A stretch of DNA of 64,000 nt from Candidatus Cloacimonadota bacterium (GTDB lineage: Bacteria > Cloacimonadota > Cloacimonadia > JGIOTU-2). Location of the stretch: positions 7,551 through 71,550 of the forward strand of contig JAGXLO010000001.1 in NCBI GenBank assembly GCA_018334695.1, read 5' to 3'. The notes beneath the pieces were generated by a model, which saw nothing but the letters and a program-made list of their open reading frames with translations, made no database searches and had not been told where the DNA came from. Made by a program: the position numbers and the translations under genes. The stretch's first letter is position 1; the number at the start of each line of letters is the position of its first letter. This document shows positions 33,217 through 56,812 of the stretch, in pieces.

Positions 33217-33648
33217 TTAATATCTTTTCTCAATTTTTGTTTCTAAAAATTCCATAATTTTTTCTCTCTCTTTCTGTTCTTTAGTAAAACGTATAGATTG
33301 TCCTCTAAACCTGTCAAGACCACGCGGTTTCTCAAATGTGCTTAACATGATGCCTTTTTTATCAGCGTAGAAACATTTATACTTAGAATATTTATTCTTA
33401 TTTTCAAATCCGATATAAGAAGAAACTATATAGTCATCATAAAAACGGTATTCAGTAGGAATAAAATAGGGGAATAGAGAGCCAAATAAAAAAATTAGAG
33501 CTAATATTACCCAGAATGGTGAAGTGGTCACCGTATAAACGAAATATGCAACTAAAATAAAAAATAATGATAAAAGTAAGGTCTGTAAGGGAAATTCAAC
33601 TAGAGGAAATGATTTCCATTTAAATTTCGGCTCTTTCTTATTCGACAT
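33217..33648 (-). CDS. hypothetical membrane protein
   Basis: 143 aa with two clear TM helices (LLLSLFFILVAYFVYTV; FWVILALIFLFGSLFPYFI). It overlaps the yicC stop by 11 nt, so it is likely co-transcribed. Confidence 0.4.
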   Translation of the reverse strand: MSNKKEPKFKWKSFPLVEFPLQTLLLSLFFILVAYFVYTVTTSPFWVILALIFLFGSLFPYFIPTEYRFYDDYIVSSYIGFENKNKYSKYKCFYADKKGIMLSTFEKPRGLDRFRGQSIRFTKEQKEREKIMEFLETKIEKRY

Positions 33649-34531
33649 TATAAGCCTGTTCCTTACACTTATTAATTTCGTTTTTAATTGTTAATATTTC
33701 AGAAAACAGCTCTTTCTTATTATATTTTGCAGAAATAGTATTAATTTCTCTTTGCATTTCTTGTATTGTAAATAGCAAAGAATGACCAATTGGTTGCTCA
33801 TCTTTTGTTAATAATGAGCGTAATTTATCAAGATGGCTTTTCAATCTTACAATTTCTTCTGTAATTTCAGATTTATCAATATAATAATTGATCTCTGAAA
33901 GTATTTTTTCTTCATTAAACTTGTTTGTTTCTGTGTTATATTTATAAATTTCATTAAGTTTTTCTTCAACATGCTTTTTCAGATCAGACATAAATTCCGG
34001 AATTGAAAGCTCAATGGTAGAAAGGGCTACTTCCATTTTATTAATAGAAGAAATAAAAAACTCTTCTAAATTTTTTCCCTCTTTTTCTCTTGCTTCTATC
34101 ATTCTTTTTATGGCATCCTGCGTGGAAGCAATTAAGGAATCACAAAATTTATCAGTTTCAAAAATTGTGGTAGGGGATTCTATTGAATTCTGAAAATAAA
34201 TTATATCAAAGAGTCTAATTTTTTTAGATATTTCAACTCTGTTTGATAACTCATCAGAAAATTCAATAAGTTTATCAATATTGCTTTTTATGGTTTCCTT
34301 TTCTATTAAATTATCTTGTGAGTGCAATTTTTTAATCTTGATGTAAATCGAGCCTCTTTTAACAAAATTCTTAACTAACTTTTCTAAATTGTAAGTTAAT
34401 TTTTCGGGAAATAAATTTGGAATAGAGGAATTGATTTTTAAATATTTATTATTTTGAGATTTAGCAATTATTCTAAAATCCCTATTTTTATATTTTAAAT
34501 TTGCCTTTCCAAAACCTGTCATACTTTTCAT
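33638..34531 (-). CDS. yicC: YicC/YloC family endoribonuclease
   Basis: The start is reset to the MKSMTGFGKA... N-terminus, which is universal in YicC. The length, coiled-coil middle and conserved C-terminus fit. The ORF track started it 15 codons earlier. Confidence 0.75.
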   Translation of the reverse strand: MKSMTGFGKANLKYKNRDFRIIAKSQNNKYLKINSSIPNLFPEKLTYNLEKLVKNFVKRGSIYIKIKKLHSQDNLIEKETIKSNIDKLIEFSDELSNRVEISKKIRLFDIIYFQNSIESPTTIFETDKFCDSLIASTQDAIKRMIEAREKEGKNLEEFFISSINKMEVALSTIELSIPEFMSDLKKHVEEKLNEIYKYNTETNKFNEEKILSEINYYIDKSEITEEIVRLKSHLDKLRSLLTKDEQPIGHSLLFTIQEMQREINTISAKYNKKELFSEILTIKNEINKCKEQAYNVE

Positions 34532-35219
34532 ATAAAATTTCCTTATAATTAATTTTAATTGAAAAACATTTGTCATATTTATTTGTCAAGTTTTGAAACC
34601 CTGCCTTTTTGCTCATCCCTAATCAACTTTGAGGCAGTGGATAAATAAAAAATGCTTAAGTTTACATAATATATATTATCAGAGATTGTTAATTTAAATA
34701 AAATGAAAAATAGACTTCAGGTTTATATACGAAACTTTTATTTTTATTTATGAAATTTATTAAAAACAATTTTTAAATCCTGTGAAATAATTTGCAAGAG
34801 TATATTAATATTTCAAAAAGTTTTATTAAATAAAATAAATTTATGAACAATTTTAAAATTTTTGTTTTTCTAGATCACAATACAAAATATTTTGGTCCTC
34901 GGTTTTTTATCTAAACTATTTATTTTTATACTATAAATTATTGTATTCTTCAGGATGAACTTTTTTCCTGTTAAATTTATTCATATTTTTTGATTCTGAA
35001 GCTCTATTGCGAGTTATTATAATTTTAATTTATTAGATTAATACCTACAAAAAAATAGAATTTTATAATATTATTTATTTTAGAATTATACTCAAAGTGA
35101 AAAATAAATAAAAAAATTACTAAATTTAATTGTTACTTCTTTTTAAATAAAAAGATTCCTAATTTTATACGTCCGGCAAATTTTAGTATGTCTGCAGTTT
35201 TATCATTTATATATAAAAA

Positions 35220-35250
35220 TTGACATAATAGATATGCTTTCTTTTATAGT
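35220..35250 (+). promoter_or_regulatory. candidate sigma70-like promoter for the 35273 gene
   Basis: A perfect TTGACA lies at 35220-35225, followed 17-19 nt later by TTTATA/TATAGT. A GGAGG SD at 35265 and an ATG at 35273 follow. This is sequence pattern only. Confidence 0.25.
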
Positions 35251-35272
35251 AATACAAATATATGGAGGTTAT

Positions 35273-38194
35273 ATGACATCCAATATAATTATTACTGATG
35301 TAGGTAGTACAACTACAAAAGCCATTTTATTGCAGAAATCCAATGATAATTCTTTTGATATTGTTGATATTGTCAAATTTCCGACTACTGTGGAAAAACC
35401 GGAAGAAGACGTAAATATTGCAATAAATAAAGCTTTTAAGGCATTACAGAAAAAAATTAGTACTCCCCTATTTTCTGATCATATGGAACTAAACAAAAAT
35501 GTTCAGTTTTTCTCTACAAGTAGTGCAGGGGGAGGATTGCAAATAATCGTTATAGGTTTAACCATGTTTGATTCTGCTAGTAGTGGAAAACGTACTGCCT
35601 TTGGAGCAGGTGGTGTAATTTTGGATACATTTGCTATTGATGACAAAAGAACTGCCTTACAACAGATGCAAACCATGCACATACTCCATCCTGATATAAT
35701 TTTGATGGCTGGCGGTGTGGATAAAGGTAATGTTAATTCATTAATTCGCTTAGCAGAGATACTACAATTAGCAAAACCAACTCCAAAATTTGGAAAAAAA
35801 AATAAAATACCACTCGTATTTGCCGGCAATAAATCAGCCCAATCCTATATCAAATGGATTCTTAAAGATAATTTTCACATTGAAGTTGTATCCAATATAA
35901 GACCTACTTTACAAGAGGAAAATCCTGAACCTGCAAGGAAGAAAATTCACCAACTCTTTATGGATAATGTAATGGAACAAGCACCTGGATATGGCAAATT
36001 AAAACAAAAAACCAATAGTGATATAATTCCTACACCTTTGGGAGTTATCAAATCTCTTAAAATTGTTAGCGAGAAACTAGATAAAAATCTCTTGGCAGTA
36101 GATATTGGAGGTGCAACAACAGATATTTTTTCTAACATACTCGGAGAATACTTTAGAACTGTAAGTGCTAACTACGGAATGAGTTACAGCATTTCTAACG
36201 TGGCAAAAGATATAGGTTTTGAAAAACTGATTAAGCTATTACCATCACTATTTTCAGAAGATTACATTAGAAATTATATTTCGAATAAAATGCTTTATCC
36301 TACCTATATTCCAACTAATAATTTCCAGCTTTCAATTGAACAAGCAATTGCTAAATTAGCTATTCAACTTAGTAAAAAACAGCATTTTGATATGAATTTT
36401 AATACAGAAAAAATTGGTTTTCTAGACGATTTAAAGAGATCAATTCTATCTGAAAAAATTACTGAAACGTTCTATTATCAAGATGCTTTAAATAAAAGAA
36501 AGTTTCACATGAACGATATTGATATTCTTATAGCAAGTGGTGGTGTGATCTCCTCTGCTAACAATAAGCAACTATTGTATATTATGAATCTCGGTTTTAA
36601 TCCCGAAGGAATAACCGAAGTTTGGAAGGATAAACACTTCCTAACTCCTCATATGGGAGTTTTGAGCAATAAAGAAAAAGAACTGGCATCAAAAATACTA
36701 ATTGAAGAGTGTATAGTAAAAATCGGTTTGGTGGTTCGACCTTTTGGCAAACAATGGAAATCAGATAAAAAAGTAATCACAATTAAAATTGATTCTGAGC
36801 AAGAAAAAACTCTATTAACAGGAGATCTAAAATATTTTGATAACCCCGATAAAAGAGAAAGATCCATAAAGATTAACCTCCATAACGGATTTGAAGTTGG
36901 TGATGATGTCTCCAAAACCGAGTTCAATTCAAAATTACCGATACTAATTGATTGCCGACCCAAAGATACCTATACAAATGAAGCTGAATCCTATGAATTT
37001 AAACAAGAGCTAGAATCTATCGAAAAAAGTTTTAATGAGTTCATCCCTGATAAAACTATAGTTTCAGGAGTTATTAAAAAAAATATTAATCTCCCCTACC
37101 CGGGTGAAATATTAGTTAAAAATGGAGATAAGATAGAACCCGGTGATCTAATAGGTAAAAACGTCTATGATCCCCCAAAAGTTTATATACTAACTCTTTT
37201 TGATAAAAACCAACTTCAAATTAACAAAGAGAATATTAAAGAATCATTAATTATCAAAGAAGGAGATGAGGTAAAATTAGGACAAAAAATTGCTAAAGTA
37301 AAAGGACGCAAGTTGCTTGATTCAATGAGTTCCAAACGATTTACATATTCTTCTCCTGTTCGGGGAAGGGTGGAAAAAATTAATCACGAAGTTGGAACAA
37401 TAATCTTACGTGAAATTCAGGATTATTCCGACAAACCCGTAAAAGTGAAAATTGCCAAAAGGCTTGATATTAAACCTAAGAAGATGAAAAAATATTTAAA
37501 GAAAAACGTAGGCAATTTTGTTTACGCAGGTGATCTCTTGGCCTCAAAAGTGGTAGATGTTATGTCAAAATCAGATGCACCAGCCCATATGGACAAGTAC
37601 GAGCTATCGATTCAAGCACCAAGTACTGGAACAATTACCAACATCGATTATGACAAAGGAACTCTTACTATCAAATATGAAAAAGAACCCTTTAAAAAGT
37701 TTTCTCATATCTATGGAATCGTAGAAAATGTGGAACCCGAGATTTCAGCTGAACTCAAATTCAATGGTTACAAATTACTGGGCATAATAGGTTTTGGTAA
37801 CGAAAACAGTGGTAAACTACATTATATAAGTGAATTAGAAGACATTATCACCTGCAATAAAGGAGAAATAGCTGCTTATCGGGGCAAAATTGATCAGAAT
37901 TTTCTTAAAAAAGCTGAAGAGCTTGAACTAAATGGAGTGATTAGTGCCTCCATAGATAATCAGGATCTAATCAATTTCATTGGCGAGGAGATTGGAGTTG
38001 CCCTAACTGGTAATGAAAAAATACCATTCCCCTACATTTTAACAGAAGGTTTTGGAGATTTTGAGATGTGTGTTGATTATAAAGAATTTCTGAAAGAGCA
38101 TGATAACGAGTGGTGTTATATCAACGGACACACTCAGATAAGAGCAGGTGTAACGAGACCAAAGATCATTATTAATAAAAAAGAGACTAAATAA
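35273..38194 (+). CDS. large multidomain protein: GlmL/MutL-like actin-fold ATPase N-terminus plus C-terminal hybrid-barrel (biotinyl/lipoyl-like) motifs
   Basis: The start is reset to the ATG 7 nt after GGAGG (MTSNIIITDVGSTTTKAILL), the phosphate-1 motif of the ASKHA fold as in the glutamate-mutase accessory protein MutL/GlmL and EutA-like proteins. A second ASKHA-like block (LLAVDIGGATTDIFS) is present. The C-terminal half carries several hybrid-barrel-like motifs: GEILVKNGDKIEPGDLIGK, IKEGDEVKLGQKIAKVKG, SPVRGRVEKINHEVGTIIL and APSTGTITNIDYDKGTLTI. Confidence 0.55.
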   Translation: MTSNIIITDVGSTTTKAILLQKSNDNSFDIVDIVKFPTTVEKPEEDVNIAINKAFKALQKKISTPLFSDHMELNKNVQFFSTSSAGGGLQIIVIGLTMFDSASSGKRTAFGAGGVILDTFAIDDKRTALQQMQTMHILHPDIILMAGGVDKGNVNSLIRLAEILQLAKPTPKFGKKNKIPLVFAGNKSAQSYIKWILKDNFHIEVVSNIRPTLQEENPEPARKKIHQLFMDNVMEQAPGYGKLKQKTNSDIIPTPLGVIKSLKIVSEKLDKNLLAVDIGGATTDIFSNILGEYFRTVSANYGMSYSISNVAKDIGFEKLIKLLPSLFSEDYIRNYISNKMLYPTYIPTNNFQLSIEQAIAKLAIQLSKKQHFDMNFNTEKIGFLDDLKRSILSEKITETFYYQDALNKRKFHMNDIDILIASGGVISSANNKQLLYIMNLGFNPEGITEVWKDKHFLTPHMGVLSNKEKELASKILIEECIVKIGLVVRPFGKQWKSDKKVITIKIDSEQEKTLLTGDLKYFDNPDKRERSIKINLHNGFEVGDDVSKTEFNSKLPILIDCRPKDTYTNEAESYEFKQELESIEKSFNEFIPDKTIVSGVIKKNINLPYPGEILVKNGDKIEPGDLIGKNVYDPPKVYILTLFDKNQLQINKENIKESLIIKEGDEVKLGQKIAKVKGRKLLDSMSSKRFTYSSPVRGRVEKINHEVGTIILREIQDYSDKPVKVKIAKRLDIKPKKMKKYLKKNVGNFVYAGDLLASKVVDVMSKSDAPAHMDKYELSIQAPSTGTITNIDYDKGTLTIKYEKEPFKKFSHIYGIVENVEPEISAELKFNGYKLLGIIGFGNENSGKLHYISELEDIITCNKGEIAAYRGKIDQNFLKKAEELELNGVISASIDNQDLINFIGEEIGVALTGNEKIPFPYILTEGFGDFEMCVDYKEFLKEHDNEWCYINGHTQIRAGVTRPKIIINKKETK

Positions 38195-38197
38195 TTT

Positions 38198-39976
38198 TCA
38201 AATTCTATCTATCTTAGTAAGTTCGTTCCTGATTTGGGGAGCGTAAGCTCCATTAGAATAGGAAGTTAAATAATTTTTGAAGATGCGCTTAGCTGTTTTG
38301 TAATTCTGTTTATTTAAGTAGCAATAACCCAAATTTTTTAATAATATTTCCCAATTAACGATTTCACCATAATCTTTTACATTCTCATATAATTTTATAG
38401 CTTTATCGTACATATTGTGCTTGTAATAAAAAATGCCCATGACATAATTTAAATAATTTAGTTTTAATGAATCAGCAGTTTGATTTTTTATCTTATCATA
38501 TACATTTTTTGTTATAGTTACATTTACGGAATTATAATGTTTTATAAAATCTTTAAGTAGTATCGCTAGCGAATCTTTAGTTTCTGATAACTTAAAAGCC
38601 TCTGCCATTTCCTTAGCAGATACAATATCATTAAAATATTCGCTCTTATAATCATATCTAATATAATTTTGGAAAAGTGAATCTGCTGCTTTGTATTTAC
38701 CTGAAAGCAGATTTGTAAGATAAAGATAATATTTAGCCTCGGTATAAATATCCTCTTTATGGCGTTCTTCAGATTTGTCTATGATTTGTTTGAACATCTC
38801 TCTGGATTTTTCATAATCGTCGGCATACAATTCATATTTTGCCAAAAGATTATCACTTCTTAGAGCATAATTAGTTTTCTCGGATAGTTTATGTGCTTGT
38901 TCAGCATAATTTCTGGCTTGCTGCGGTTCATTATTTATTTCAAATGAAATTTGAACTAATTTTTCTAAAGAATACAAAACATCCAGATTGAAACGCTCAG
39001 TGTCAGTATCTTTATAAACTTGGAGGACGTTTTTATACAACTTTTCTGCATTCTCATAATCTCTTCCGGAAAAATACAAGTCACCTATTCTTTTATTGAT
39101 CTTAATCTTACTTACAAAACTTATATCGTATTCTGCTAAAACATCCATATATGCCTTTATACTTGGTTCCAGATAACCCTGTCTTTGACATTTATTGGCA
39201 AATTGTATTAGCTCTCTTCTTCCCATAAATTTATAGATTTTTGCAGCTTCTTCAAAATTTTCATCAATAAAATAAAATTCCGCCAGCAGCTTTCGAAGAT
39301 TTTTGTTCTCTTCTGATTTGATTCTTTGTTTTATTGCCTCAATTATTTTTTCATTTTTCACTTCAAGTTTTTCCAAGTTATAGCGTACATAGCTGTATTT
39401 ACGTTCATCTAACAAATTAAGATATTCATCGATAGCCTTCTCATTTTCTCCTAATTGTTTATACACCATGGCTAAATTTAGAGCAAAAGCTTTGTCATTT
39501 TTTGCCAGATTACGGGCTTTTTGATAATATTCCTCTGCTTTCTCAAAATATTTTTCTTTATTAAATACGCCGGCAACTTTAACATAAGAAATGCTGCTTT
39601 CCTTTTTAAAATTCAAATAATCATCAATAATATTCTCAACTTCATCCATATTATTATTTTTTAATTGCAACTGCAGTTTAGTCAGTAATATATATGATTC
39701 TGAAAGAGCTGTTTCTTCTTTTTTCAATATTTCTTTTAGCTTATCATACTGCTTTGTAGAAAAATAAAGATCTACAAGGCTTTTTATGGTTTCCTCATGG
39801 TGAGGTGTTGTTTCCAAAATTTCATAATAAGCCTTTTCTGCTTTATCAAACTGTGAACGTTGAATATAATATCTTGCTTGTCTGTTTTTCATATCAATTA
39901 TTTGTTTTCTGGTATAGGAATTAGCATAATTGAATATGAGCATAAAAATTGTACTAACTAAAATTAATTTTTTCAT
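38198..39976 (-). CDS. secreted tetratricopeptide-repeat protein
   Basis: Signal peptide followed by many TPR-like repeats (W/Y..A...Y......Y.KA pattern throughout). 592 aa. It lies directly downstream of the 1088-aa gene on the minus strand with a 2-nt gap. Confidence 0.7.
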   Translation of the reverse strand: MKKLILVSTIFMLIFNYANSYTRKQIIDMKNRQARYYIQRSQFDKAEKAYYEILETTPHHEETIKSLVDLYFSTKQYDKLKEILKKEETALSESYILLTKLQLQLKNNNMDEVENIIDDYLNFKKESSISYVKVAGVFNKEKYFEKAEEYYQKARNLAKNDKAFALNLAMVYKQLGENEKAIDEYLNLLDERKYSYVRYNLEKLEVKNEKIIEAIKQRIKSEENKNLRKLLAEFYFIDENFEEAAKIYKFMGRRELIQFANKCQRQGYLEPSIKAYMDVLAEYDISFVSKIKINKRIGDLYFSGRDYENAEKLYKNVLQVYKDTDTERFNLDVLYSLEKLVQISFEINNEPQQARNYAEQAHKLSEKTNYALRSDNLLAKYELYADDYEKSREMFKQIIDKSEERHKEDIYTEAKYYLYLTNLLSGKYKAADSLFQNYIRYDYKSEYFNDIVSAKEMAEAFKLSETKDSLAILLKDFIKHYNSVNVTITKNVYDKIKNQTADSLKLNYLNYVMGIFYYKHNMYDKAIKLYENVKDYGEIVNWEILLKNLGYCYLNKQNYKTAKRIFKNYLTSYSNGAYAPQIRNELTKIDRI

Positions 39977-39978
39977 AA

Positions 39979-42900
39979 TTATTCTTGAATTTGTTTCATA
40001 TATTTTTTGATGAGATTGTGATATTTTTCGGGATAATTTTCATAGATTTCTTTAAGGAAATCACGATATTCGATTTTTTCCATATCTAGCTTGAGTGAAT
40101 CAGGTACAGAATATTCAGCCTCATCAGGGCTTTCAGCTCTTCTTTTTTGACTAAAATCGCGCTTATGAATTGACTTTTGGGCATCAAGAAGTCTGGAATA
40201 TATATGTTGCTGTTTTTCCAACAATTCTTCATCAATTGTGCCTTTACGTAACTTTTCTACAACTTCTTCCAGTAATTCTTCTGTAGATTCAAGGTCACCT
40301 AATAATTTTTTTGCTTCCGGATAATCTTTTAGTACTCTTTCCAGATTTTCTTTTATTCTCTGCTCATTGGCAGTTATACGTTCCATCATCTGGCGCTGTT
40401 CCTGGCTCAAACGGGGTGAAGTTTTACCGTTTTGCCCCATCTTTTGCATCATTTGCTGAAAAAGAGCCATAGATAATTGATTGGCCATTTTTTGTCCCTG
40501 GGACATCTGCTGTAATTGCTGCATAAGCTGCTGCATACCACCTCCACTCTGTCCAGATCCGCCGCGTGATTGTAATAAGTCCGAAAGCATTTTGTTAATT
40601 GAATAAAAAATTTCTTCTTTATCCTTTTGCACATTATAATTACGATTATTACGTAGTGCATCAAACATATTTTCAAAAAGATTGAAAGTGGAAGCCGAGT
40701 GTTTCATTATACCTGGATTAATGCTAAACATGATCAAAGGATTCTGAAATAGAGTTTTCATGCTATTTTGTAAACCCTCGTAGATTTCAATCTCTCTATC
40801 CAAAATTTCAAATGCTCCATATTCCCTGGGCAAAATCGTTTCTTGCTGTTTTGAGTAGTATAGCAGGTTCTCTACAGTTCTTTTTATTAACTTTTTAAAC
40901 TTCTCTTGCATAGCATTTTGCATCATCTGTTGAGATTTACAAATGGATGAACACATCTTGCCCATGCATTCTGAAATAGAGTTTTGAGTCTGGGAAGCTT
41001 TGCTCGACTGATTTTTTTTCAACTGCTCAATAGCGTCCTGTAGCTGCTGAGAAAGCTTACTTTGTTCTGCCTCTGACAAGGCTTTTTCGAGTTGTTCAGC
41101 TGCTTTTGACTCTTTGTTTTCTCTTAAGTTTTTGGCCTGTTTCTCAAGCTCTTTTTTAAGCTGCTGATATTTTTTAGATATCTCTTCCTGCTTTTTACTC
41201 AAACCACTCAAGTCCTGATTGTTTTCGCTTCTTTTTTTAGTAAGCTTATTTAATTGATCCTGTAATTTTTTTAATTCATTAGCTTGCTGAATAAGCTTTT
41301 GCATATCCTGTTCCTGTTTTACCTTTTTTAAAAGATTTAGTGTATTCTCCAATCGCTTCAGGAACTTCTCCTGAGAAAACTTGAAATTTTTAAGAGCCTC
41401 TTTCATATCTTCCGGCTTCATTTTCTTTATTGATTCTTGCAGGTCCTTCATAGCTTCTTTTAGCTCAGGAGTTGAAATATCTTCCATCAGTTTTTGTAGT
41501 TCTTTTAATTTTTCCATAGTCTCTTGAGAAGCAAGTTTGTTTTTTTCTACTTCTTCAATGAATTTCTTATATTCTTTGGCAGTTTGTTCAGCTACTTTTG
41601 ACATCTCCTCCTGCTTTTTTAGAATACTTTTAAGATCTTCCTTTTCTTGCCATTCATATTCTTCTTGCTTAAGATATTTTCTTCTTAACTGTTCAAATTT
41701 CTTCTTATTCTTTTCACTTTCCTTAAAGGCTCTGGAAAGATTGTCGGATTGAGATTGCTGTTCTTTATCAATCTCTTCATAAAGCTCTTCTATCGAGGGA
41801 AATTTGAGTAAATAAGTTTTAGATCTCCCAGTTTGTTTTTCAGGTATTGAACAATTATCATAAACTTTGAGAAAATAGCTTATAATGTCCCCGGGCATCA
41901 GATCAATATCACTAACATCAAAAACGAAACTGTCTTTATAAAATGAATTGGTAATATTTTCTGAAATTGTCTCTTCTTTGAATTCATCATTATTCTTTTT
42001 GAAGACGATAGATATTTTGGATAAACCAAAATCGTCCGAGCTGGTAAACAGTATGGTCTCAGTTAGCTGCTTTGCCAAAAGTTTATCCCGTGCAGGTGCA
42101 AGTATTTCAATAGTTGGAGAAAGATCCTCTTCAGCATAAATATTCCTCTCTATAGGCTGATTTTGATTGTTCAATGTATCTACAAGCAAGAAGTGATAAG
42201 TTCCGGTATTTTCTATATTGAACACCGTACTATAGTTGTATTTATTAATTTTATCTAATTTATTGGTTTCCCCATCAGAAAAAATAATCCGATGTTTTTT
42301 CAGATCATTATTAACTAATAAATTTACTGTAATCTTCGTTCCACGAAGTGCTATTACATTTCCGGACGCGTTTTCCTCTGTTTTATCTGGAATATTTGCA
42401 TACTCAGGATAATCATATTTTAGAGTTAATTCTTTGATTGCGGGCTTTGATAAGGTATTTACAAAAAATGTATCAGATGAAGCAAACTCATTTTTTAGAC
42501 AGTAATACATAGTATCTGTAACATTATAGAAAGTATATTTATCAGAAGCCAGATTGACCTGTTTTGTTCTTAAATTCTTTTTTATGAATAGATCATATTG
42601 CAGGTTAGGATTATAATTATCTATTGATATCTGAAGATTTGATCCTCTCAATAATGTTGCATCTCCGGGCTTTATTTCAATTTTTTTATCGTATTTTGGT
42701 GAAAATCTCTCAATATCTGTAAGAGTTATTAAAGAATTATTACACAGACCAGGTAATACCAAGTAGAAAACTAAAATAAAGACAAGAGATATGAATAAAA
42801 TTTTTATATGCCAGAGAACTTTTTGAGGAGGAAAAATCTCACTGTAACCTAAATTCTTTGTAATTTGATTAGCTTTTTTAATGGTAGCTTTTTGGATATC

Positions 42901-43245
42901 CGAAGAGTAAAAATCTTTTTTTGCTTTTTCCAGTTCAAAGGCAGCAAGAATGATTTCTTTGCTTCCCTCTTCAATTTGGGCAATTCTCTGTGCAATTTTT
43001 TTTAGAGAAGTAAAAGACAAACTAGACCTGACCACAAATAAGACCAGCAAAAGAGTAATGATGACTTTATAGATTATACTGATAACTAGGAGTGATTCAT
43101 AACTACTAAGCAGTAAATTTGAAACAAAAGTATAGGTTATAAAGGAAACAATAAGCAATAGAATTAGTATAACAAAGTTTACGAAAATTTGTTGTAGTAA
43201 AAATTTAAGTCTAAATTTTTTTAATTTATTTATATATGAATTCAT
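39979..43245 (-). CDS. large membrane-anchored coiled-coil protein (DUF4175-like)
   Basis: 1088 aa. N-terminal TM helices are followed by a beta-rich extracytoplasmic region. Then comes ~450 aa of K/E/Q-rich coiled coil and Q/G/M-rich low-complexity blocks (GGSGQSGGGMQQLMQQLQQMSQGQKM). The architecture is reminiscent of DUF4175 / Bat-operon-associated proteins. The family call is from memory only. Confidence 0.5.
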   Translation of the reverse strand: MNSYINKLKKFRLKFLLQQIFVNFVILILLLIVSFITYTFVSNLLLSSYESLLVISIIYKVIITLLLVLFVVRSSLSFTSLKKIAQRIAQIEEGSKEIILAAFELEKAKKDFYSSDIQKATIKKANQITKNLGYSEIFPPQKVLWHIKILFISLVFILVFYLVLPGLCNNSLITLTDIERFSPKYDKKIEIKPGDATLLRGSNLQISIDNYNPNLQYDLFIKKNLRTKQVNLASDKYTFYNVTDTMYYCLKNEFASSDTFFVNTLSKPAIKELTLKYDYPEYANIPDKTEENASGNVIALRGTKITVNLLVNNDLKKHRIIFSDGETNKLDKINKYNYSTVFNIENTGTYHFLLVDTLNNQNQPIERNIYAEEDLSPTIEILAPARDKLLAKQLTETILFTSSDDFGLSKISIVFKKNNDEFKEETISENITNSFYKDSFVFDVSDIDLMPGDIISYFLKVYDNCSIPEKQTGRSKTYLLKFPSIEELYEEIDKEQQSQSDNLSRAFKESEKNKKKFEQLRRKYLKQEEYEWQEKEDLKSILKKQEEMSKVAEQTAKEYKKFIEEVEKNKLASQETMEKLKELQKLMEDISTPELKEAMKDLQESIKKMKPEDMKEALKNFKFSQEKFLKRLENTLNLLKKVKQEQDMQKLIQQANELKKLQDQLNKLTKKRSENNQDLSGLSKKQEEISKKYQQLKKELEKQAKNLRENKESKAAEQLEKALSEAEQSKLSQQLQDAIEQLKKNQSSKASQTQNSISECMGKMCSSICKSQQMMQNAMQEKFKKLIKRTVENLLYYSKQQETILPREYGAFEILDREIEIYEGLQNSMKTLFQNPLIMFSINPGIMKHSASTFNLFENMFDALRNNRNYNVQKDKEEIFYSINKMLSDLLQSRGGSGQSGGGMQQLMQQLQQMSQGQKMANQLSMALFQQMMQKMGQNGKTSPRLSQEQRQMMERITANEQRIKENLERVLKDYPEAKKLLGDLESTEELLEEVVEKLRKGTIDEELLEKQQHIYSRLLDAQKSIHKRDFSQKRRAESPDEAEYSVPDSLKLDMEKIEYRDFLKEIYENYPEKYHNLIKKYMKQIQE

Positions 43246-43262
43246 AACATTATTTTCTAAAA

Positions 43263-43336
43263 GGAGCCACCAGCGGGAATTGAACCCACGACCAACTGAT
43301 TACGAATCAGTTGCTCTACCTCTGAGCTATGGTGGC
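43263..43336 (-). tRNA. tRNA-Thr (anticodon CGU)
   Basis: The reverse complement folds as a cloverleaf: acceptor GCCACCA/TGGTGGC, U8, D-arm GCTC-AGAGGTA-GAGC, anticodon stem ACTGA/TCAGT with loop TTCGTAA (anticodon CGT), T-arm GTGGG-TTCAATT-CCCGC, and a U discriminator. The genomic sequence continues CC then T, so the 3' CCA is not fully encoded. Confidence 0.85.
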
Positions 43337-43481: not shown

Positions 43482-43837
43482 GGGGGTGACTGGTTTCGAC
43501 AGGGATCAAGTAGACTGGATAAGCATGTCGGTGAGATTACCTATCCCGTCATAGAATGGTGATGCTAAAAATTCAAGTGCAGATGAAAATCTTGCATTAG
43601 CTGCTTAATTAACAAGTAGCTCATTTGTTTAGTTGTTTCCATTTGCAACTCTACAAATGCCGTTTAAAATGGATATGATTCTGTGATATCTATAAGCAGA
43701 ATTGAATTTTCATAGGTTATACCAGGAAGAGCTTGTTTGTTATGCTATTCTGGAAGAAAAAAAACTAATAGACTAAACATGTAGAAATTCCTTTAGACGG
43801 ATCCCTGGACGCGGGTTCGACTCCCGCCACCTCCATT
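43482..43837 (+). ncRNA. ssrA: tmRNA (ssrA)
   Basis: The 5' end GGGGGUGACUGGUUUCGACAGGG and the 3' end GGACGCGGGUUCGACUCCCGCCACCUCCA form a tRNA-Ala-like acceptor/T-arm with a G3:U70 wobble and an encoded CCA. The internal tag ORF ...(A)KNSSADENLALAA ends with TAA at 43606-43608. Total ~356 nt. Confidence 0.9.
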
Positions 43838-43867
43838 TATTTAATAATTTTTTATACTCTCCTATTA

Positions 43868-55924: not shown

Positions 55925-56002
55925 CGGGATGTAGCGCAGCACGGTTAGCGCGCTTCGTTCGGGACGAAGAGGCCGCCGGTTCAAATCCGGCCATCCCGAC
56001 CA
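55925..56002 (+). tRNA. tRNA-Pro (anticodon CGG)
   Basis: Cloverleaf: acceptor CGGGATG/CATCCCG with the Pro-typical C1:G72, D-arm GCGC...GCGC, anticodon stem CTTCG/CGAAG with loop TTCGGGA (anticodon CGG), T-arm GCCGG-TTCAAAT-CCGGC, discriminator A, and an encoded CCA. Confidence 0.9.
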
Positions 56003-56065
56003 TTTTATTTAATTTTAAGCAATAACAATATCCTAAAACTATCTACCTTTAAACTTATTAAAAGA

Positions 56066-56269
56066 TTATCGTTTATCTACATTATGTACGTAGTGTGCAA
56101 TATAAAGCAAGATCGCAAACAGAATAAAGGGATTAGCAGCTATAAAATAGCTTTCGTGCTGCATAAAATGGAATATATTACTGTGGGGTAGTAAGAGTTT
56201 ATCAAAACTTCCCAAAAACAACAAAAGAGCTGCTACAATAGCAGATAATTTTGCTAGTATTTTTAACAT
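56066..56269 (-). CDS. small hypothetical two-TM membrane protein
   Basis: 67-aa ORF with two hydrophobic helices, downstream of the hup-microprotein pair on the same strand. No family assigned; it may not be a real gene. Confidence 0.3.
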   Translation of the reverse strand: MLKILAKLSAIVAALLLFLGSFDKLLLPHSNIFHFMQHESYFIAANPFILFAILLYIAHYVHNVDKR

Positions 56270-56296
56270 TAATCATTCCTCAGACGATTAAAGAAA

Positions 56297-56392
56297 TTAC
56301 TTATTCTTTTTCTTGTGTCTATTTTTTCTTCTATTTTTTTTGCGTTTATGCTTATTTATTTTTGATTTTCTGTGTTTTTTTCCACCTGGCAT
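56297..56392 (-). CDS. 31-aa polybasic microprotein (MPGGKKHRKSKINKHKRKKNRRKNRHKKKNK)
   Basis: Below the ORF-track size cutoff. The ATG lies 9 nt after the hup stop and is preceded by AAGGAG 6 nt upstream. It is 31 aa, 24 of them K/R/H, and ends at TAA. Confidence 0.4.
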   Translation of the reverse strand: MPGGKKHRKSKINKHKRKKNRRKNRHKKKNK

Positions 56393-56401
56393 TATACTCC
56401 T

Positions 56402-56686
56402 TTATGAATTATGTTTTTTTACTTGTTCGATTAACTTATTTGAAAATTTGAAAGTAGGAACTACGCGTTCCGGTATTTGAATCTTTTCTTGAGTATTAGG
56501 ATTACGGGCAAGACGCGCTTTTCGTTTTTTATTCTTAAAAGTACCAAATGTACGTAACTCTATGTGCTCGCCTTCAATCAAACTTTCCTTAATGTTATCA
56601 AGAAAAGAATCTACGATAATTTTCGTATCTTTCAATATTATTCCAGTCTCCTGGGAAATGGCATGAACTAAGTCAGCCTTTGTCAT
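56402..56686 (-). CDS. hup: HU family DNA-binding protein
   Basis: The start is reset to MTKADLVHAISQETG, which is the HU-like N-terminus, with a GGAGG SD 6 nt upstream. The RTFGTFKNKKRKARLARNPNTQEKIQIP arm motif is characteristic of HU/IHF. Confidence 0.85.
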   Translation of the reverse strand: MTKADLVHAISQETGIILKDTKIIVDSFLDNIKESLIEGEHIELRTFGTFKNKKRKARLARNPNTQEKIQIPERVVPTFKFSNKLIEQVKKHNS

Positions 56687-56812
56687 ACAATCCTCCAAAA
56701 TTTTTTTTGATAAATTTTTCTTTCATATTTATGTGTCAAGGTTTACGAATATTTTAACATTTAAATTGCTAAATAGCATAAAATTAGAGCATATTGAGTA
56801 AATTCATTAGCT

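What the first reader, a model, noticed from the sequence alone, without database searches (positions are those of the whole stretch)
34577..38194. Exceptionally long AT-rich intergenic region feeding a 973-aa protein that fuses a GlmL/MutL-like actin-fold ATPase to multiple hybrid-barrel (biotinyl/lipoyl-like) motifs
Most intergenic gaps in this window are <60 bp, but 34577-35272 is ~700 bp of ~20% GC non-coding DNA between divergent yicC (-) and this gene (+). The gene has a perfect TTGACA and a strong GGAGG. The product starts with ITDVGSTTTKA, the phosphate-1 motif of ASKHA ATPases, as in the glutamate-mutase protein MutL/GlmL, EutA reactivases and PilM. A second LLAVDIGGATTD block follows. 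The second ~450 aa contain at least four motifs shaped like the biotinyl/lipoyl hybrid barrel (GEILVKNGDKIEPGDLIGK; IKEGDEVKLGQKIAKVKG; SPVRGRVEKINHEVG; APSTGTITNIDYDKGT). I do not know a described family with this combination. A reactivase-like ATPase fused to swinging-arm-like domains would be a novel architecture. The long leader suggests heavy regulation or a small RNA.
Basis: partly seen in the sequence, partly recalled or inferred. Interest (0 to 1): 0.65.

Follow-up and report, generated by a model that had tools for sequence, protein, structure and literature searches.

The report
Fused actin-fold ATPase and barrel/swivel partner
This 973-residue Cloacimonadota protein is the single-chain form of an uncharacterised two-protein module found across bacteria and archaea (an ATPase related to the glutamate-mutase helper MutL/GlmL, joined to a partner made of barrel domains and a mobile "swivel" domain), while the long AT-rich DNA in front of it shows nothing special.

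Summary
A 696-bp, 19.5% GC gap precedes a 973-aa gene (35273-38194).

- **N-terminal half (residues 5-479):** a MutL/GlmL-family actin-fold (ASKHA) ATPase. It scores 323 bits against Pfam PF13941 but falls below every NCBIfam GlmL cut-off, and no mutase genes are nearby.
- **Architecture:** not unique. More than 120 full-length relatives exist, mostly in Cloacimonadota.
- **Main finding:** the protein is a fusion. In Bacillota, Planctomycetota, Armatimonadota and Bathyarchaeia the two parts are adjacent genes: A (about 605 aa) and B (about 375-480 aa). They are often joined by a cluster of membrane-protein genes that includes DUF6754 (32 of 53 split loci, 0 of 27 fused loci).
- **Function:** not described in the libraries searched. 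My best guess is a reactivase-like, ATP-driven actuator.
- **The gap:** specific to this lineage. It carries an 82-bp indel in near-identical relatives, has no Rfam match, folds no better than shuffled sequence, and holds no conserved ORF.

The parts
34577..35272 (.). AT-rich gap between the divergent genes yicC (-) and the fusion gene (+): 696 bp, 19.5% GC. Probably an ordinary divergent promoter region.
   Evidence: size, composition, no ORF of 30 aa or more. (no Rfam family). (promoter-like sites 8 against 10.6 +/- 3.9 in shuffles; no terminator). (DnaA boxes not enriched). (folding z +1.34, +1.04, -0.47). (96.5% identity to L001 plus an indel; third-position divergence of flanking genes is 1.3-11%).
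34778..34859 (.). An 82-nt segment of the gap that is absent from the near-identical relatives L001 and L002, so it is dispensable. It removes or disrupts the tiny ORFs at 34773-34850 (-) and 34843-34914 (+).
   Evidence: alignment A2, columns 328-409.
35220..35225 (+). TTGACA hexamer. The best -10 candidate is TATAGT, 19 nt downstream. If this promoter is used, the 5' UTR is only about 15-40 nt.
   Evidence: sequence. One search lists an overlapping TTATCA-N18-CATAAT site scoring 9/12. Promoter use was not tested.
35264..35268 (+). GGAGG ribosome-binding site, 4 nt before the ATG at 35273.
35273..38194 (+). Fusion gene, 973 aa plus stop codon.
   Evidence: more than 120 homologue clusters covering 99-100% of the length; conservation along the whole length.
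35285..36709 (+). Residues 5-479: MutL/GlmL-family ASKHA ATPase domain. Invariant nucleotide-binding motifs are D9-G-S-T-x-T-K16 (phosphate 1), TSSAGGGLQ (82-90), D277-IGGATTD284 (phosphate 2) and G423-G424 (adenosine).
   Evidence: PF13941, 322.7 bits. (GlmL 204, Or-4 186, TIGR01319 156 bits, all below cut-off). (invariant columns). (the nearest solved folds are acetophenone and acetone carboxylase, N-methylhydantoinase and caprolactamase ATPase subunits, then sugar kinases, FtsA, Hsp70 and DdrA).
36713..37057 (+). Residues 481-595: a beta-rich tail that belongs to the 'A' protein in split systems, followed by a flexible linker (residues about 566-581, pLDDT below 50). The linker is the fusion junction.
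   Evidence: secondary structure, pLDDT. (A-type proteins cover residues about 3-590). (A is about 605 aa, the MutL domain plus about 120 aa).
37058..37828 (+). Residues 596-852: start of the 'B' part. It contains the LPYxG motif (607-611), barrel-sandwich hybrid domain(s), the invariant REIQDYSxKP motif (713-722), a short helical pair (727-741) and further beta-rich domain(s).
37241..37402 (+). Residues 657-710: the one barrel that passes Pfam's Biotin_lipoyl threshold. Its hairpin (residues 675-692) is variable and has no conserved lysine.
37829..38176 (+). Residues about 853-968 (the beta-layer may begin near 815): the alpha/beta part of a swivelling beta/beta/alpha domain. It carries motifs that stay nearly invariant from archaea to bacteria: GIIGFGxE (837-844), IGVALTGNE (907-915), TEGFG (924-928) and TQIRAGVTRP (954-963; nt 38132-38161).

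Best explanation
What is shown. The gene encodes a protein with no signal-peptide or membrane-domain hit, so it is presumably cytoplasmic. It is the single-chain version of a two-protein module.
- Part A (residues 1 to about 595) is an ASKHA-fold ATPase of the MutL/GlmL family, on the hydantoinase branch. Every nucleotide-binding motif is intact, and a beta-rich tail follows.
- Part B (residues about 596-973) is built from sandwich-barrel hybrid domains and ends in a swivelling beta/beta/alpha domain. Its surface motifs (TGxE, EGFG, TQIRAGVxRP) are almost invariant across bacteria and archaea.
- In most other phyla, A and B are separate genes that abut or overlap. There they commonly sit in an operon with a small protein and three or four predicted membrane proteins, including DUF6754.
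- It is not a glutamate-mutase accessory protein in the strict sense, and it is not a lipoyl or biotinyl carrier.
- The 696-bp AT-rich gap is a lineage-specific divergent promoter or spacer region. It shows no detectable conserved RNA or peptide.

What is inferred. A and B work as one machine, as their fusion implies. The machine probably works like the ATP-dependent reactivases of B12 enzymes, which also combine an actin-fold ATPase with a swivel domain. On this view, ATP binding and hydrolysis in A repositions the mobile barrel/swivel module B. B then uses its invariant surface to grip, open or gate a client. In split systems the client is probably the DUF6754-containing membrane complex. 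In Cloacimonadota it is an unidentified partner encoded elsewhere.
For: Domain identities.

ATPase motifs are invariant in 31 homologues.

Fusion versus split:
- In L040 (Bacillota), L066 (Bathyarchaeia) and L070 (Planctomycetota), a protein of 605-610 aa scoring 391-426 bits on PF13941 lies directly upstream of the B gene.
- A-type proteins cover residues about 3-590 and B-type proteins start at about 588-601.
- The A-B distance is -43 to +47 nt in 27 called pairs.
- A lies upstream of B on the same strand in 59 of 74 loci with enough sequence.
- The junction is a low-confidence linker.

Breadth: 2,137 clusters at 50% identity match the C-half profile, both fused and stand-alone. At least 591 species genomes hold it.

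Operon partners: DUF6754 (396 bits) plus three other families occur in 32 of 53 split loci.

Gap.
Against: - The mechanism is inferred from folds and gene order only. There are no experimental data, and no coordinates were available to see whether the invariant B motifs face the ATP site.
- Fused-type loci never carry the membrane cluster (0 of 27 loci, 377 kb, and none in this 64-kb window). The client in this organism is therefore unknown, and the fused form may do something different.
- Fifteen of 74 loci have B without an adjacent A.
- The nearest solved folds of the ATPase half are enzymes that phosphorylate substrates (acetone and acetophenone carboxylases, hydantoinases), not chaperones.
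- The compact match of the last domain to RraA and HMG/CHA aldolase, together with many invariant polar residues, would also fit a catalytic subunit.
- All fold matches of the C-half are weak (Foldseek best E about 1e-4).
Confidence: 0.45

Rival explanations
1. The module is an ATP-dependent enzyme, not a chaperone. As in hydantoinases, 5-oxoprolinase, caprolactamase and acetone or acetophenone carboxylases, the actin-fold subunit A would phosphorylate or activate a small substrate. B, with its RraA/aldolase-like swivel domain and invariant Thr/Glu/Arg residues, would be the second catalytic or substrate-binding subunit. The membrane genes in split operons would be a transporter for the substrate.
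For: The top solved-structure matches of the full-length model are acetophenone carboxylase 5l9w_B (1.8e-10), N-methylhydantoinase 9h03_A, acetone carboxylase 5m45_B and caprolactamase 6yra_A. Hydantoinase_A reaches 25.5 bits on the N-half, against a cut-off of 22.9. The last domain superposes on RraA and HMG/CHA aldolase at 2.8 A over 115-119 residues. B carries many invariant polar residues: T912, E915, E925, T954, Q955, R957, R962, E964.
Against: No Hydantoinase_B-type partner appears in any locus. The Hydantoinase_A score for the whole protein is below threshold (21.6). No Asp, His or Cys is conserved in B for metal binding. No metabolic genes are consistently adjacent.
Confidence: 0.25
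2. It is a genuine GlmL/MutL-type reactivase serving a coenzyme-B12-dependent mutase (glutamate, ornithine or lysine) encoded elsewhere in this amino-acid-fermenting lineage. The C-terminal half would be an accessory adaptor.
For: There is a strong PF13941 match, and the best NCBIfam hits are GlmL and Or-4. Public annotation is 'glutamate mutase L'. MutL is described as a reactivating chaperone (PMC4682846).
Against: Scores are far below the equivalog cut-offs (204 against 475; 186 against 600) and below the TIGR01319 subfamily cut-off (156 against 204). No mutase subunit genes appear next to the gene here or in any of 86 related loci. The conserved partners are B and membrane proteins instead. 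The same module occurs in Planctomycetota and Bathyarchaeia in a non-mutase context.
Confidence: 0.07
3. One reading: a reactivase-like ATPase fused to swinging-arm carrier domains that bear covalently attached biotin or lipoate.
Against: No lysine is conserved at the hairpin, and residues 675-692 are the most variable part of that domain. No Lys is 90% conserved anywhere in B across 44 sequences. No carboxylase, E1/E2/E3 or ligase genes are nearby. The same barrel hits equally well the non-carrier families RnfC_N, NQRA_N, Peptidase_M23 and HlyD.
Confidence: 0.03
4. The ATPase half is a filament-forming, actin-like cytoskeletal protein in the manner of FtsA, PilM or MreB. B would be its membrane or cargo adaptor.
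For: FtsA, PilM and MreB-like folds are among the matches. Split systems sit next to membrane proteins.
Against: These matches rank below the hydantoinase-type enzymes and sugar kinases and reflect the shared ASKHA core. The MreB-like_C hit is far below threshold (15-18 bits against 27.8). There are no cell-division or pilus genes in the neighbourhood.
Confidence: 0.05
5. The 696-bp gap encodes a regulatory RNA: a long structured leader, a riboswitch or an sRNA controlling the fusion gene.
For: The gap is about 35 times the median gap length. It is 96.5% identical between the window and L001/L002.
Against: No Rfam match even at E up to 10. Folding is no better than shuffles on either strand. 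No terminator is found. Close relatives carry an 82-bp indel in the middle. The gap's divergence lies within the range for synonymous positions of flanking genes. Upstream regions of other homologues are unrelated or only about 160 bp long. The promoter-like hexamers lie within about 50 nt of the ATG.
Confidence: 0.05

Closest known systems
GlmL/MutL, the methylaspartate (glutamate) mutase accessory protein (Pfam PF13941; NCBIfam NF040745, TIGR01319), and the related ornithine-degradation protein Or-4 (NF040744)
   Same: The N-terminal 480 residues are a full-length, high-scoring match to the family's Pfam model (323 bits), with all ASKHA nucleotide-binding motifs. Public annotation uses this name.
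   Different: It scores less than half of the equivalog cut-offs. It is twice as long (973 aa against about 460). It is not flanked by glmS/glmE or any mutase gene. Instead it is fused, or elsewhere adjacent, to a barrel/swivel protein that canonical GlmL lacks.
Diol and glycerol dehydratase reactivases (DdrA/DdrB, GdrA/GdrB)
   Same: An actin/Hsp70-fold ATPase is combined with a swivelling beta/beta/alpha domain in a two-component, ATP-driven machine. DdrA is recovered by fold search with both halves of the model.
   Different: In DdrA the swivel domain is an insertion within the ATPase chain, not a C-terminal module following barrel domains. There is no DdrB-like Rossmann subunit and no dehydratase operon. 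The similarity is at fold level only (10-11% identity).
Hydantoinase A-type ATPase subunits (N-methylhydantoinase, 5-oxoprolinase, caprolactamase, acetone and acetophenone carboxylases)
   Same: These are the closest solved folds to the ATPase half. Pfam itself places MutL on the hydantoinase branch. Hydantoinase_A and Hydant_A_N give marginal hits.
   Different: No Hydantoinase_B partner is present. The partner here is a barrel/swivel protein. Identity is about 12%, and no substrate is known.
Biotinyl/lipoyl carrier domains and other barrel-sandwich hybrid (SBHM) domains: BCCP, NqrA and RnfC N-domains, membrane-fusion proteins, RNA polymerase beta/beta' SBHM, NusG domain II, DUF2118
   Same: The same flattened beta-barrel fold, with the GDxVxxGQ and SPxxGxV half-motifs. 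One copy passes Pfam's Biotin_lipoyl threshold.
   Different: There is no modifiable lysine, so it is a structural or binding barrel as in NqrA, RnfC or RNAP, not a cofactor carrier.
Swivelling beta/beta/alpha domains: phosphohistidine domains of PEP synthase, PPDK, Enzyme I and rifampin phosphotransferase; RraA and HMG/CHA aldolase; LeuD and aconitase X small subunit; PA domains
   Different: There is no conserved histidine, so it cannot be a classical phosphocarrier. No conserved Asp is available for an RraA/aldolase-type metal site. Its own signature motifs (IGVALTGxE, EGFG, TQIRAGVxRP) belong to no described family.

Membership tests
GlmL/MutL (glutamate mutase accessory protein) | Contains the Pfam PF13941 MutL domain above the gathering score | tested here: met
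   322.7 bits against a cut-off of 27, residues 5-479, covering model positions 1-449 of 450.
GlmL/MutL (glutamate mutase accessory protein) | Reaches the NCBIfam equivalog or subfamily cut-offs (NF040745 at 475, NF040744 at 600, TIGR01319 at 204 bits) | tested here: not met
   203.9, 185.7 and 156.4 bits. The split-type A protein of L070 also fails, at 233, 210 and 160 bits.
GlmL/MutL (glutamate mutase accessory protein) | Encoded between or beside the B12-dependent mutase subunit genes (glmS/glmE or equivalents) | tested here: not met
   the neighbours are yicC, a 143-aa ORF, RNase R, a TPR protein and a 1088-aa protein of unknown function; no mutase genes appear in 86 related loci.
GlmL/MutL (glutamate mutase accessory protein) | Single-domain protein of about 460 aa | tested here: not met
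   973 aa; the 490-aa extension is conserved and is itself a separate protein elsewhere.
GlmL/MutL (glutamate mutase accessory protein) | ATP-dependent reactivation of inactivated mutase | not testable with these tools
   This needs a biochemical assay.
ASKHA superfamily ATPase | Phosphate-1 (DxGxT), phosphate-2 (DxGGxTxD) and adenosine (GG) motifs on a duplicated RNase-H-like fold | tested here: met
   D9, G11, S12, T13, T15, K16, D277-D284 and G423/G424 are invariant in 31 sequences; 226 PDB matches with E at or below 1e-3; those listed are ASKHA proteins.
Biotinyl/lipoyl carrier (swinging-arm) domain, PF00364 | Barrel-sandwich hybrid fold | tested here: met
Biotinyl/lipoyl carrier (swinging-arm) domain, PF00364 | Conserved lysine at the tip of the hairpin for cofactor attachment | tested here: not met
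   residues 675-692 are variable and no column there is 60% Lys or more; no Lys is 90% conserved in 44 B sequences.
Biotinyl/lipoyl carrier (swinging-arm) domain, PF00364 | Association with carboxylase, 2-oxoacid dehydrogenase or glycine-cleavage partners | tested here: not met
   none in the window neighbourhood or in related loci.
PEP-utilising-enzyme phosphohistidine swivel domain | Swivelling beta/beta/alpha fold | tested here: met
PEP-utilising-enzyme phosphohistidine swivel domain | Invariant catalytic histidine (the G-G-x-T-S-H motif) | tested here: not met
   no His is 90% conserved. H953 of the window protein is replaced by M, A, R, E, F or K in homologues.
B12-dehydratase reactivase (DdrAB/GdrAB) | Large subunit combining an Hsp70/actin-fold ATPase with a swiveling domain | tested here: inconclusive
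B12-dehydratase reactivase (DdrAB/GdrAB) | Small DdrB-like subunit and linkage to dehydratase genes | tested here: not met
   no such genes nearby.
Hydantoinase/oxoprolinase (HyuA/HyuB) | Hydantoinase_A domain above threshold, together with a Hydantoinase_B partner | tested here: not met
   21.6 bits for the whole protein against a cut-off of 22.9 (25.5 bits for the N-half alone). No Hydantoinase_B appears in any protein scanned.

The most novel reading that the evidence does not exclude
A and B (fused here) are the cytoplasmic ATP-driven module of a previously undescribed membrane machine that is widespread in bacteria and archaea. Its other parts are DUF6754 and three further uncharacterised families of predicted membrane proteins. 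In this machine a MutL-like actin-fold ATPase, hitherto known only as a B12-enzyme helper, powers transport or remodelling at the membrane through an NqrA/RnfC-like barrel/swivel adaptor. Cloacimonadota and Fermentibacteria would have welded the two soluble parts into one chain.
Probability: 0.3. Interest if true: 0.75.

Novelty: new variant of a known kind. Interest (0 to 1): 0.5.

Why it matters
Thousands of database proteins are labelled 'glutamate mutase L' or 'biotin carboxyl carrier protein' on the strength of one domain. This analysis shows that a large subset of them belongs to a different, unstudied two-component system. That system is conserved in at least 591 species genomes from Bathyarchaeia to Planctomycetota and Bacillota, with sequence motifs nearly invariant across both domains of life.

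The natural fusion in Cloacimonadota is direct genetic evidence that the ATPase and the barrel/swivel protein act together. It also offers a convenient single polypeptide for structural and biochemical work.

If the link to the DUF6754 membrane cluster holds, it would define a new kind of ATP-driven membrane complex and give a first function to several DUF families. For this window specifically, the practical result is a corrected annotation. The protein is neither a glutamate-mutase accessory protein nor a cofactor carrier, and the striking AT-rich gap needs no special explanation.

Tried and rejected
1. Known RNA in the gap. Rfam at E up to 10 over 34000-35800 gave only chance-level hits. 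At gathering thresholds the whole window holds only tmRNA and two tRNAs. Rejected.
2. Structured leader. MFE z-scores are +1.34 (+ strand), +1.04 (- strand) and -0.47 (last 161 nt). Rejected.
3. Small conserved gene in the gap. All ORFs are 29 aa or shorter, and two of them are removed or disrupted by the 82-bp indel in L001/L002. Rejected.
4. Replication origin. DnaA boxes number 26 against 21 +/- 4 expected, with only one inside the gap. Rejected.
5. Repeats or a mobile-element remnant in the gap. Only low-complexity AT matches were found. Rejected.
6. Promoter evidence. Sigma-70-like sites are no more frequent than in shuffles. The Bacteroidota-type TAnnTTTG element is not enriched and is absent from the + strand of the gap. 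Uninformative.
7. Constraint on the gap, judged from the close relative. Divergence is 3.5%, against 1.3-11% at third codon positions of the flanking genes. No signal, and only one lineage was available.
8. Sequence search of the PDB with the whole protein, with each half, and with a C-half profile. Nothing significant; the best is RNAP beta' at E = 0.07.
9. Defence-system models (PADLOC). No hits.
10. NCBIfam names for B and for the operon partners C1-C4 and C6. None.
11. Literature. No paper contains PF13941, DUF6754, or combinations of GlmL/MutL-like with Cloacimonadota or TIGR01319.
12. The afdb50 fold library was unavailable.
13. A partner for the fused form shared across phyla. None was found; the TetR, C10 and C13 neighbours are lineage synteny only.
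14. My first ORF-based count of A-B adjacency (27 of 45) was deflated by antisense shadow ORFs in GC-rich genomes. I replaced it with a tblastn test (59 of 74).

Full report
**1. The observation**

- Window 34577-35272 is a 696-bp stretch of 19.5% GC, between yicC on the minus strand (33638-34576; Pfam YicC N- and C-domains) and a long ORF on the plus strand.
- Coding DNA in the window is 33.8% GC, and the median gap between my provisional gene calls is about 20 bp. So the gap is unusual in length.
- It is still only the second longest gap: 56003-56812 is 810 bp. Its AT-richness is shared by other intergenic stretches (0.197-0.206 GC).
- YicC homology begins at Met16, and gene callers in the near-identical contigs L001/L002 use that start. 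The true gap is therefore probably 741 bp.
- TTGACA lies at 35220-35225, GGAGG at 35264-35268 and the ATG at 35273.
- The N-termini of 30 homologues align with the 35273 start, not with the in-frame ATG at 35234 that automatic callers chose.

**2. The N-terminal half**

- Residues 5-479 match Pfam PF13941 (MutL) over the whole model, at 322.7 bits and E = 4.8e-96.
- The three relevant NCBIfam models all fall far below their curated cut-offs: GlmL 204 against 475, Or-4 186 against 600, and TIGR01319 156 against 204.
- The ASKHA nucleotide-binding motifs are invariant in 31 homologues of 43-65% identity, so the ATPase site is very likely functional. The motifs are D9-G-S-T-x-T-K16, D277-IGGATTD284 and G423-G424, plus the family's TSSAGGGLQ.
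- A confident AF2 model (mean pLDDT 83.7, pTM 0.81) was searched against the PDB. The nearest folds are the hydantoinase-type ATPase subunits: acetophenone carboxylase 5l9w_B (1.8e-10), N-methylhydantoinase, acetone carboxylase and caprolactamase. Sugar kinases, FtsA, Hsp70, the diol-dehydratase reactivase DdrA, PilM and butyrate kinase follow.
- By sequence, no solved structure is related.

**3. The C-terminal half**

- Only one segment, residues 657-710, passes a Pfam threshold: Biotin_lipoyl at 33.5-37 bits against 22.1. The same segment hits the non-carrier barrel families RnfC_N, NQRA_N, Peptidase_M23 and HlyD_3 in 9 of 15 family members.
- In carrier domains the tip of the hairpin between the two half-motifs bears the modified lysine. 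Here that region (residues 675-692) is the most variable part of the domain.
- In an alignment of 44 partner-module sequences from many phyla, no Lys, His, Cys or Asp column reaches 90% conservation. The 'swinging-arm' reading is therefore not supported.
- The barrel matches follow: NqrA (8.4), RnfC (7.8), BCCP (7.1), membrane-fusion proteins, RNA polymerase beta' SI3, NusG domain II and DUF2118.
- Foldseek agrees but only weakly, with a best E of about 1e-4 to RNAP beta'. A profile search of PDB sequences also gave RNAP beta' as its best hit, at E = 0.07.
- From the secondary structure the layout is:
  - ATPase, residues 1-480
  - small beta domain, 481-560
  - low-confidence linker, about 566-581
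  - barrel region, about 596-725, containing LPYxG and the invariant REIQDYSxKP
  - two short helices, 727-741
  - further beta domains, about 745-852
  - alpha/beta end of the swivel domain, about 853-968
- Without coordinates I could not count the barrels exactly. Motifs 1 and 4 have sub-threshold HMM support only.

**4. The architecture is a family, and it is a fusion**

- A word-indexed search found more than 120 clusters at 90% identity that cover 99-100% of the protein at 42-97% identity. Nearly all are from Cloacimonadota MAGs, and where named they are called 'glutamate mutase L' or 'TIGR01319 family'. Longer versions (about 1055 aa) add an N-terminal zinc-ribbon region (PF12674).
- An exhaustive profile search with the C-terminal half found 2,137 clusters at 50% identity (1,203 at E of 1e-10 or better). 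Of the 150 best, 49 are 800 aa or longer. Another 95 are shorter than 520 aa and lack any ATPase motif.
- A scan of one genome per species, using only the peptide patterns TQIRAGVxRP and IGVALTG[NKD]E, returned at least 591 confirmed loci. Taxa include Cloacimonadota, Fermentibacteria/Aegiribacteria, Mcinerneyibacteriota, Armatimonadota, Bacillota, Planctomycetota, Eisenbacteria, WOR-3, Abditibacteriota, Pseudomonadota MAGs and Bathyarchaeia.
- In three distant examples the module is a separate gene of 388-480 aa. A protein of 605-610 aa scoring 391-426 bits on PF13941 lies directly upstream. The examples are L040 (Fermentithermobacillus), L066 (Bathyarchaeia) and L070 (Singulisphaera).
- Across the 80 loci, A-type proteins align to window residues about 3-590 and B-type proteins to residues from about 588-601 onward.
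- A and B are separated by -43 to +47 nt in 27 called pairs.
- By tblastn, the A part lies immediately upstream on the same strand in 59 of 74 loci with enough sequence.
- The fusion junction coincides with the low-pLDDT linker.
- One Cloacimonadota MAG (L016) carries both a fused gene and a split pair. Several Bacillota loci carry two tandem pairs.

**5. Genomic context**

- Around the fused gene nothing is conserved beyond lineage synteny. The window and L001/L002 share yicC, RNase R, the TPR protein and the 1088-aa ORF. Other Cloacimonadota have unrelated neighbours: an FGE-sulfatase and an endonuclease in one lineage, a peptidase S9 and DUF5684 in another, and a TetR gene upstream in one subclade. 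Fermentibacteria have yet others. No B12-dependent mutase genes appear anywhere.
- Around split pairs, clustering of flanking ORFs revealed a recurrent operon. It runs: a small protein (C3, about 100-150 aa), then A, then B. A block of DUF6754 (C1; PF20539, 396 bits), C2 (about 230 aa, polytopic), C6 (about 283 aa) and C4 (about 240-340 aa, polytopic) follows or precedes it.
- By tblastn, at least one of the four block genes is present in 32 of 53 split-type loci, against 0 of 27 fused-type loci. None occurs in this 64-kb window or in the 377 kb of fused-type loci.
- Some B genes keep the membrane block but lack an adjacent A (L052, L058, L079).
- Neither NCBIfam nor PADLOC names any of these proteins.
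- Public sources call stand-alone B 'hypothetical protein' or 'biotin carboxyl carrier protein'.
- No paper in the searchable library mentions PF13941 or DUF6754.

**6. The gap**

- No Rfam family matches, even at E up to 10.
- There is no terminator-like site, and promoter-like sites are no more frequent than in shuffles.
- Neither DnaA boxes nor the Bacteroidota-type -7 element is enriched.
- Repeats are low-complexity only.
- The RNA of either strand folds slightly worse than dinucleotide shuffles, with z = +1.34 and +1.04. The proximal 161 nt gives z = -0.47.
- Against the near-identical contigs L001/L002 the gap is 96.5% identical, but it carries an 82-nt indel at about 34778-34859. That indel removes or disrupts two of the tiny ORFs.
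- Third-position divergence of the flanking genes spans 1.3-11%. The gap's 3.5% therefore shows no special constraint.
- In homologues at 63% identity the upstream region is about 1 kb of unrelated, GC-richer, hairpin-repeat DNA. At 56% identity it is about 160 bp.
- The long gap is therefore a feature of this lineage, not of the gene family. The only promoter-like hexamers with a plausible geometry lie within about 50 nt of the ATG, so most of the gap may not be transcribed with the gene. That last point is an inference and was not tested.

**7. How it most likely works**

Shown:
- an intact ASKHA ATPase;
- a partner module of barrels plus a swivel domain, carrying a set of polar motifs conserved across both prokaryotic domains;
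- gene fusion, tight adjacency and overlap of A and B;
- frequent operon linkage of the split form to predicted membrane proteins.

Inferred:
- A and B form one machine (the Rosetta-stone argument).
- Both barrel-sandwich and swivelling domains are classically mobile elements.
- The best-understood systems that pair an actin-fold ATPase with a swivel domain are the B12-enzyme reactivases. In them, ATP hydrolysis releases the partner held by the swiveling domain (PMC7674605).
- MutL/GlmL itself is regarded as such a chaperone (PMC4682846).

I therefore favour an ATP-driven actuator, in which the nucleotide cycle of A repositions B, and B acts on a client through its invariant surface. In split systems the client is plausibly the DUF6754 complex, with B playing an NqrA/RnfC-like peripheral role. 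In this organism the client is unknown.

My confidence is about 0.9 for the architecture and the fusion, and about 0.35-0.4 for the mechanism. The main rival (about 0.25) is an ATP-dependent enzyme of the hydantoinase/carboxylase type with B as the catalytic subunit. A true GlmL role, a cofactor-carrier role, a cytoskeletal role and a regulatory RNA in the gap are each unlikely, at 0.07 or less.

**8. Novelty and verdict**

- The N-terminal domain belongs to a known but poorly characterised family.
- The partner module, the fused architecture and the associated operon are present in databases. They are unnamed or misnamed, and I found no description of them in the literature I could search.
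- I classify the finding as a new variant of a known kind: a MutL-like ATPase system with a new obligatory partner.
- Interest is moderate, at 0.5.
- The most novel reading not excluded is a new ATP-driven membrane machine shared by bacteria and archaea, with probability about 0.3.
- The 'exceptional leader' part of the finding is ordinary.

Noticed in passing
window 34532-34576: yicC probably starts at its 16th codon (ATG at 34531 on the minus strand). Pfam and TIGR00255 homology begin there, and gene callers in L001/L002 use that start. The intergenic gap would then be about 741 bp rather than 696 bp.
   Followed up: partly
window 39979-43245 (-) and 38198-39976 (-): A 1088-aa ORF with no Pfam family, only a weak TrlF-family AAA-like ATPase hit (NCBIfam E = 1.2e-4, 21 bits against a cut-off of 350). 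It is followed 2 nt downstream by a 592-aa TPR protein, and both are convergent with the fusion gene. The pair is conserved in L001/L002 but not next to more distant homologues.
   Followed up: no
window 43263-43336 (-), 43482-43838 (+), 55925-56002 (+): tRNA-Thr(CGU), a tmRNA (tag peptide ADENLALAA, Rfam 166.7 bits) and tRNA-Pro(CGG). These are the only Rfam-level RNAs in the window.
   Followed up: yes
window 56003-56812: The longest gap in the window (810 bp, 28.8% GC), lying after tRNA-Pro. It has no Rfam match at gathering thresholds. I did not examine it for small genes.
   Followed up: no
L003 about 1690-2170: The roughly 1-kb region upstream of the 63%-identity homologue contains about three copies of a unit of about 150 bp. 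Each copy has GC-rich hairpins (aaaccgttgaaacggttt and ccaccggctcaagccggtgg types), resembling REP/MITE-like repeats. It is unrelated to the window's AT-rich gap.
   Followed up: no
Homologues P0005-P0017, P0080, P0083, P0084, P0089, P0111 (alignment A1, columns 1-94): Many Cloacimonadota homologues carry an extra N-terminal region of about 85 aa with a CxxC...CxxC zinc ribbon (PF12674). The window protein lacks it.
   Followed up: partly
L016 10355-13352 (-); L036, L038, L072, L086: One Cloacimonadota MAG encodes both a fused gene and, about 3 kb away, a split A-B pair. Several Bacillota loci have two tandem A-B pairs with the small C3 gene between them. The module has therefore been duplicated repeatedly.
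   Followed up: partly
L012 7621-10056 (+); L033 1390-3981 (+): Two variant architectures. The first is an 811-aa MutL-domain protein with an unassigned C-terminal extension of about 350 aa, directly downstream of the fused gene. The second is an 863-aa Planctomycetota protein with the B module at its C-terminus and about 480 N-terminal residues with no Pfam match.
   Followed up: no
L041, L045, L048, L065, L066, L067 (downstream of the B gene): In Bathyarchaeia a LarA-like gene (Pfam Lar_N, E = 5.5e-50 in L066 7096-8328) follows the A-B pair in six loci.
   Followed up: no
L008-L012, L018, L019 (upstream of the fused gene): In one Cloacimonadales subclade a TetR-family regulator gene lies upstream of the fused gene on the same strand, in seven loci. 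It is a candidate local regulator. The window has no equivalent.
   Followed up: no
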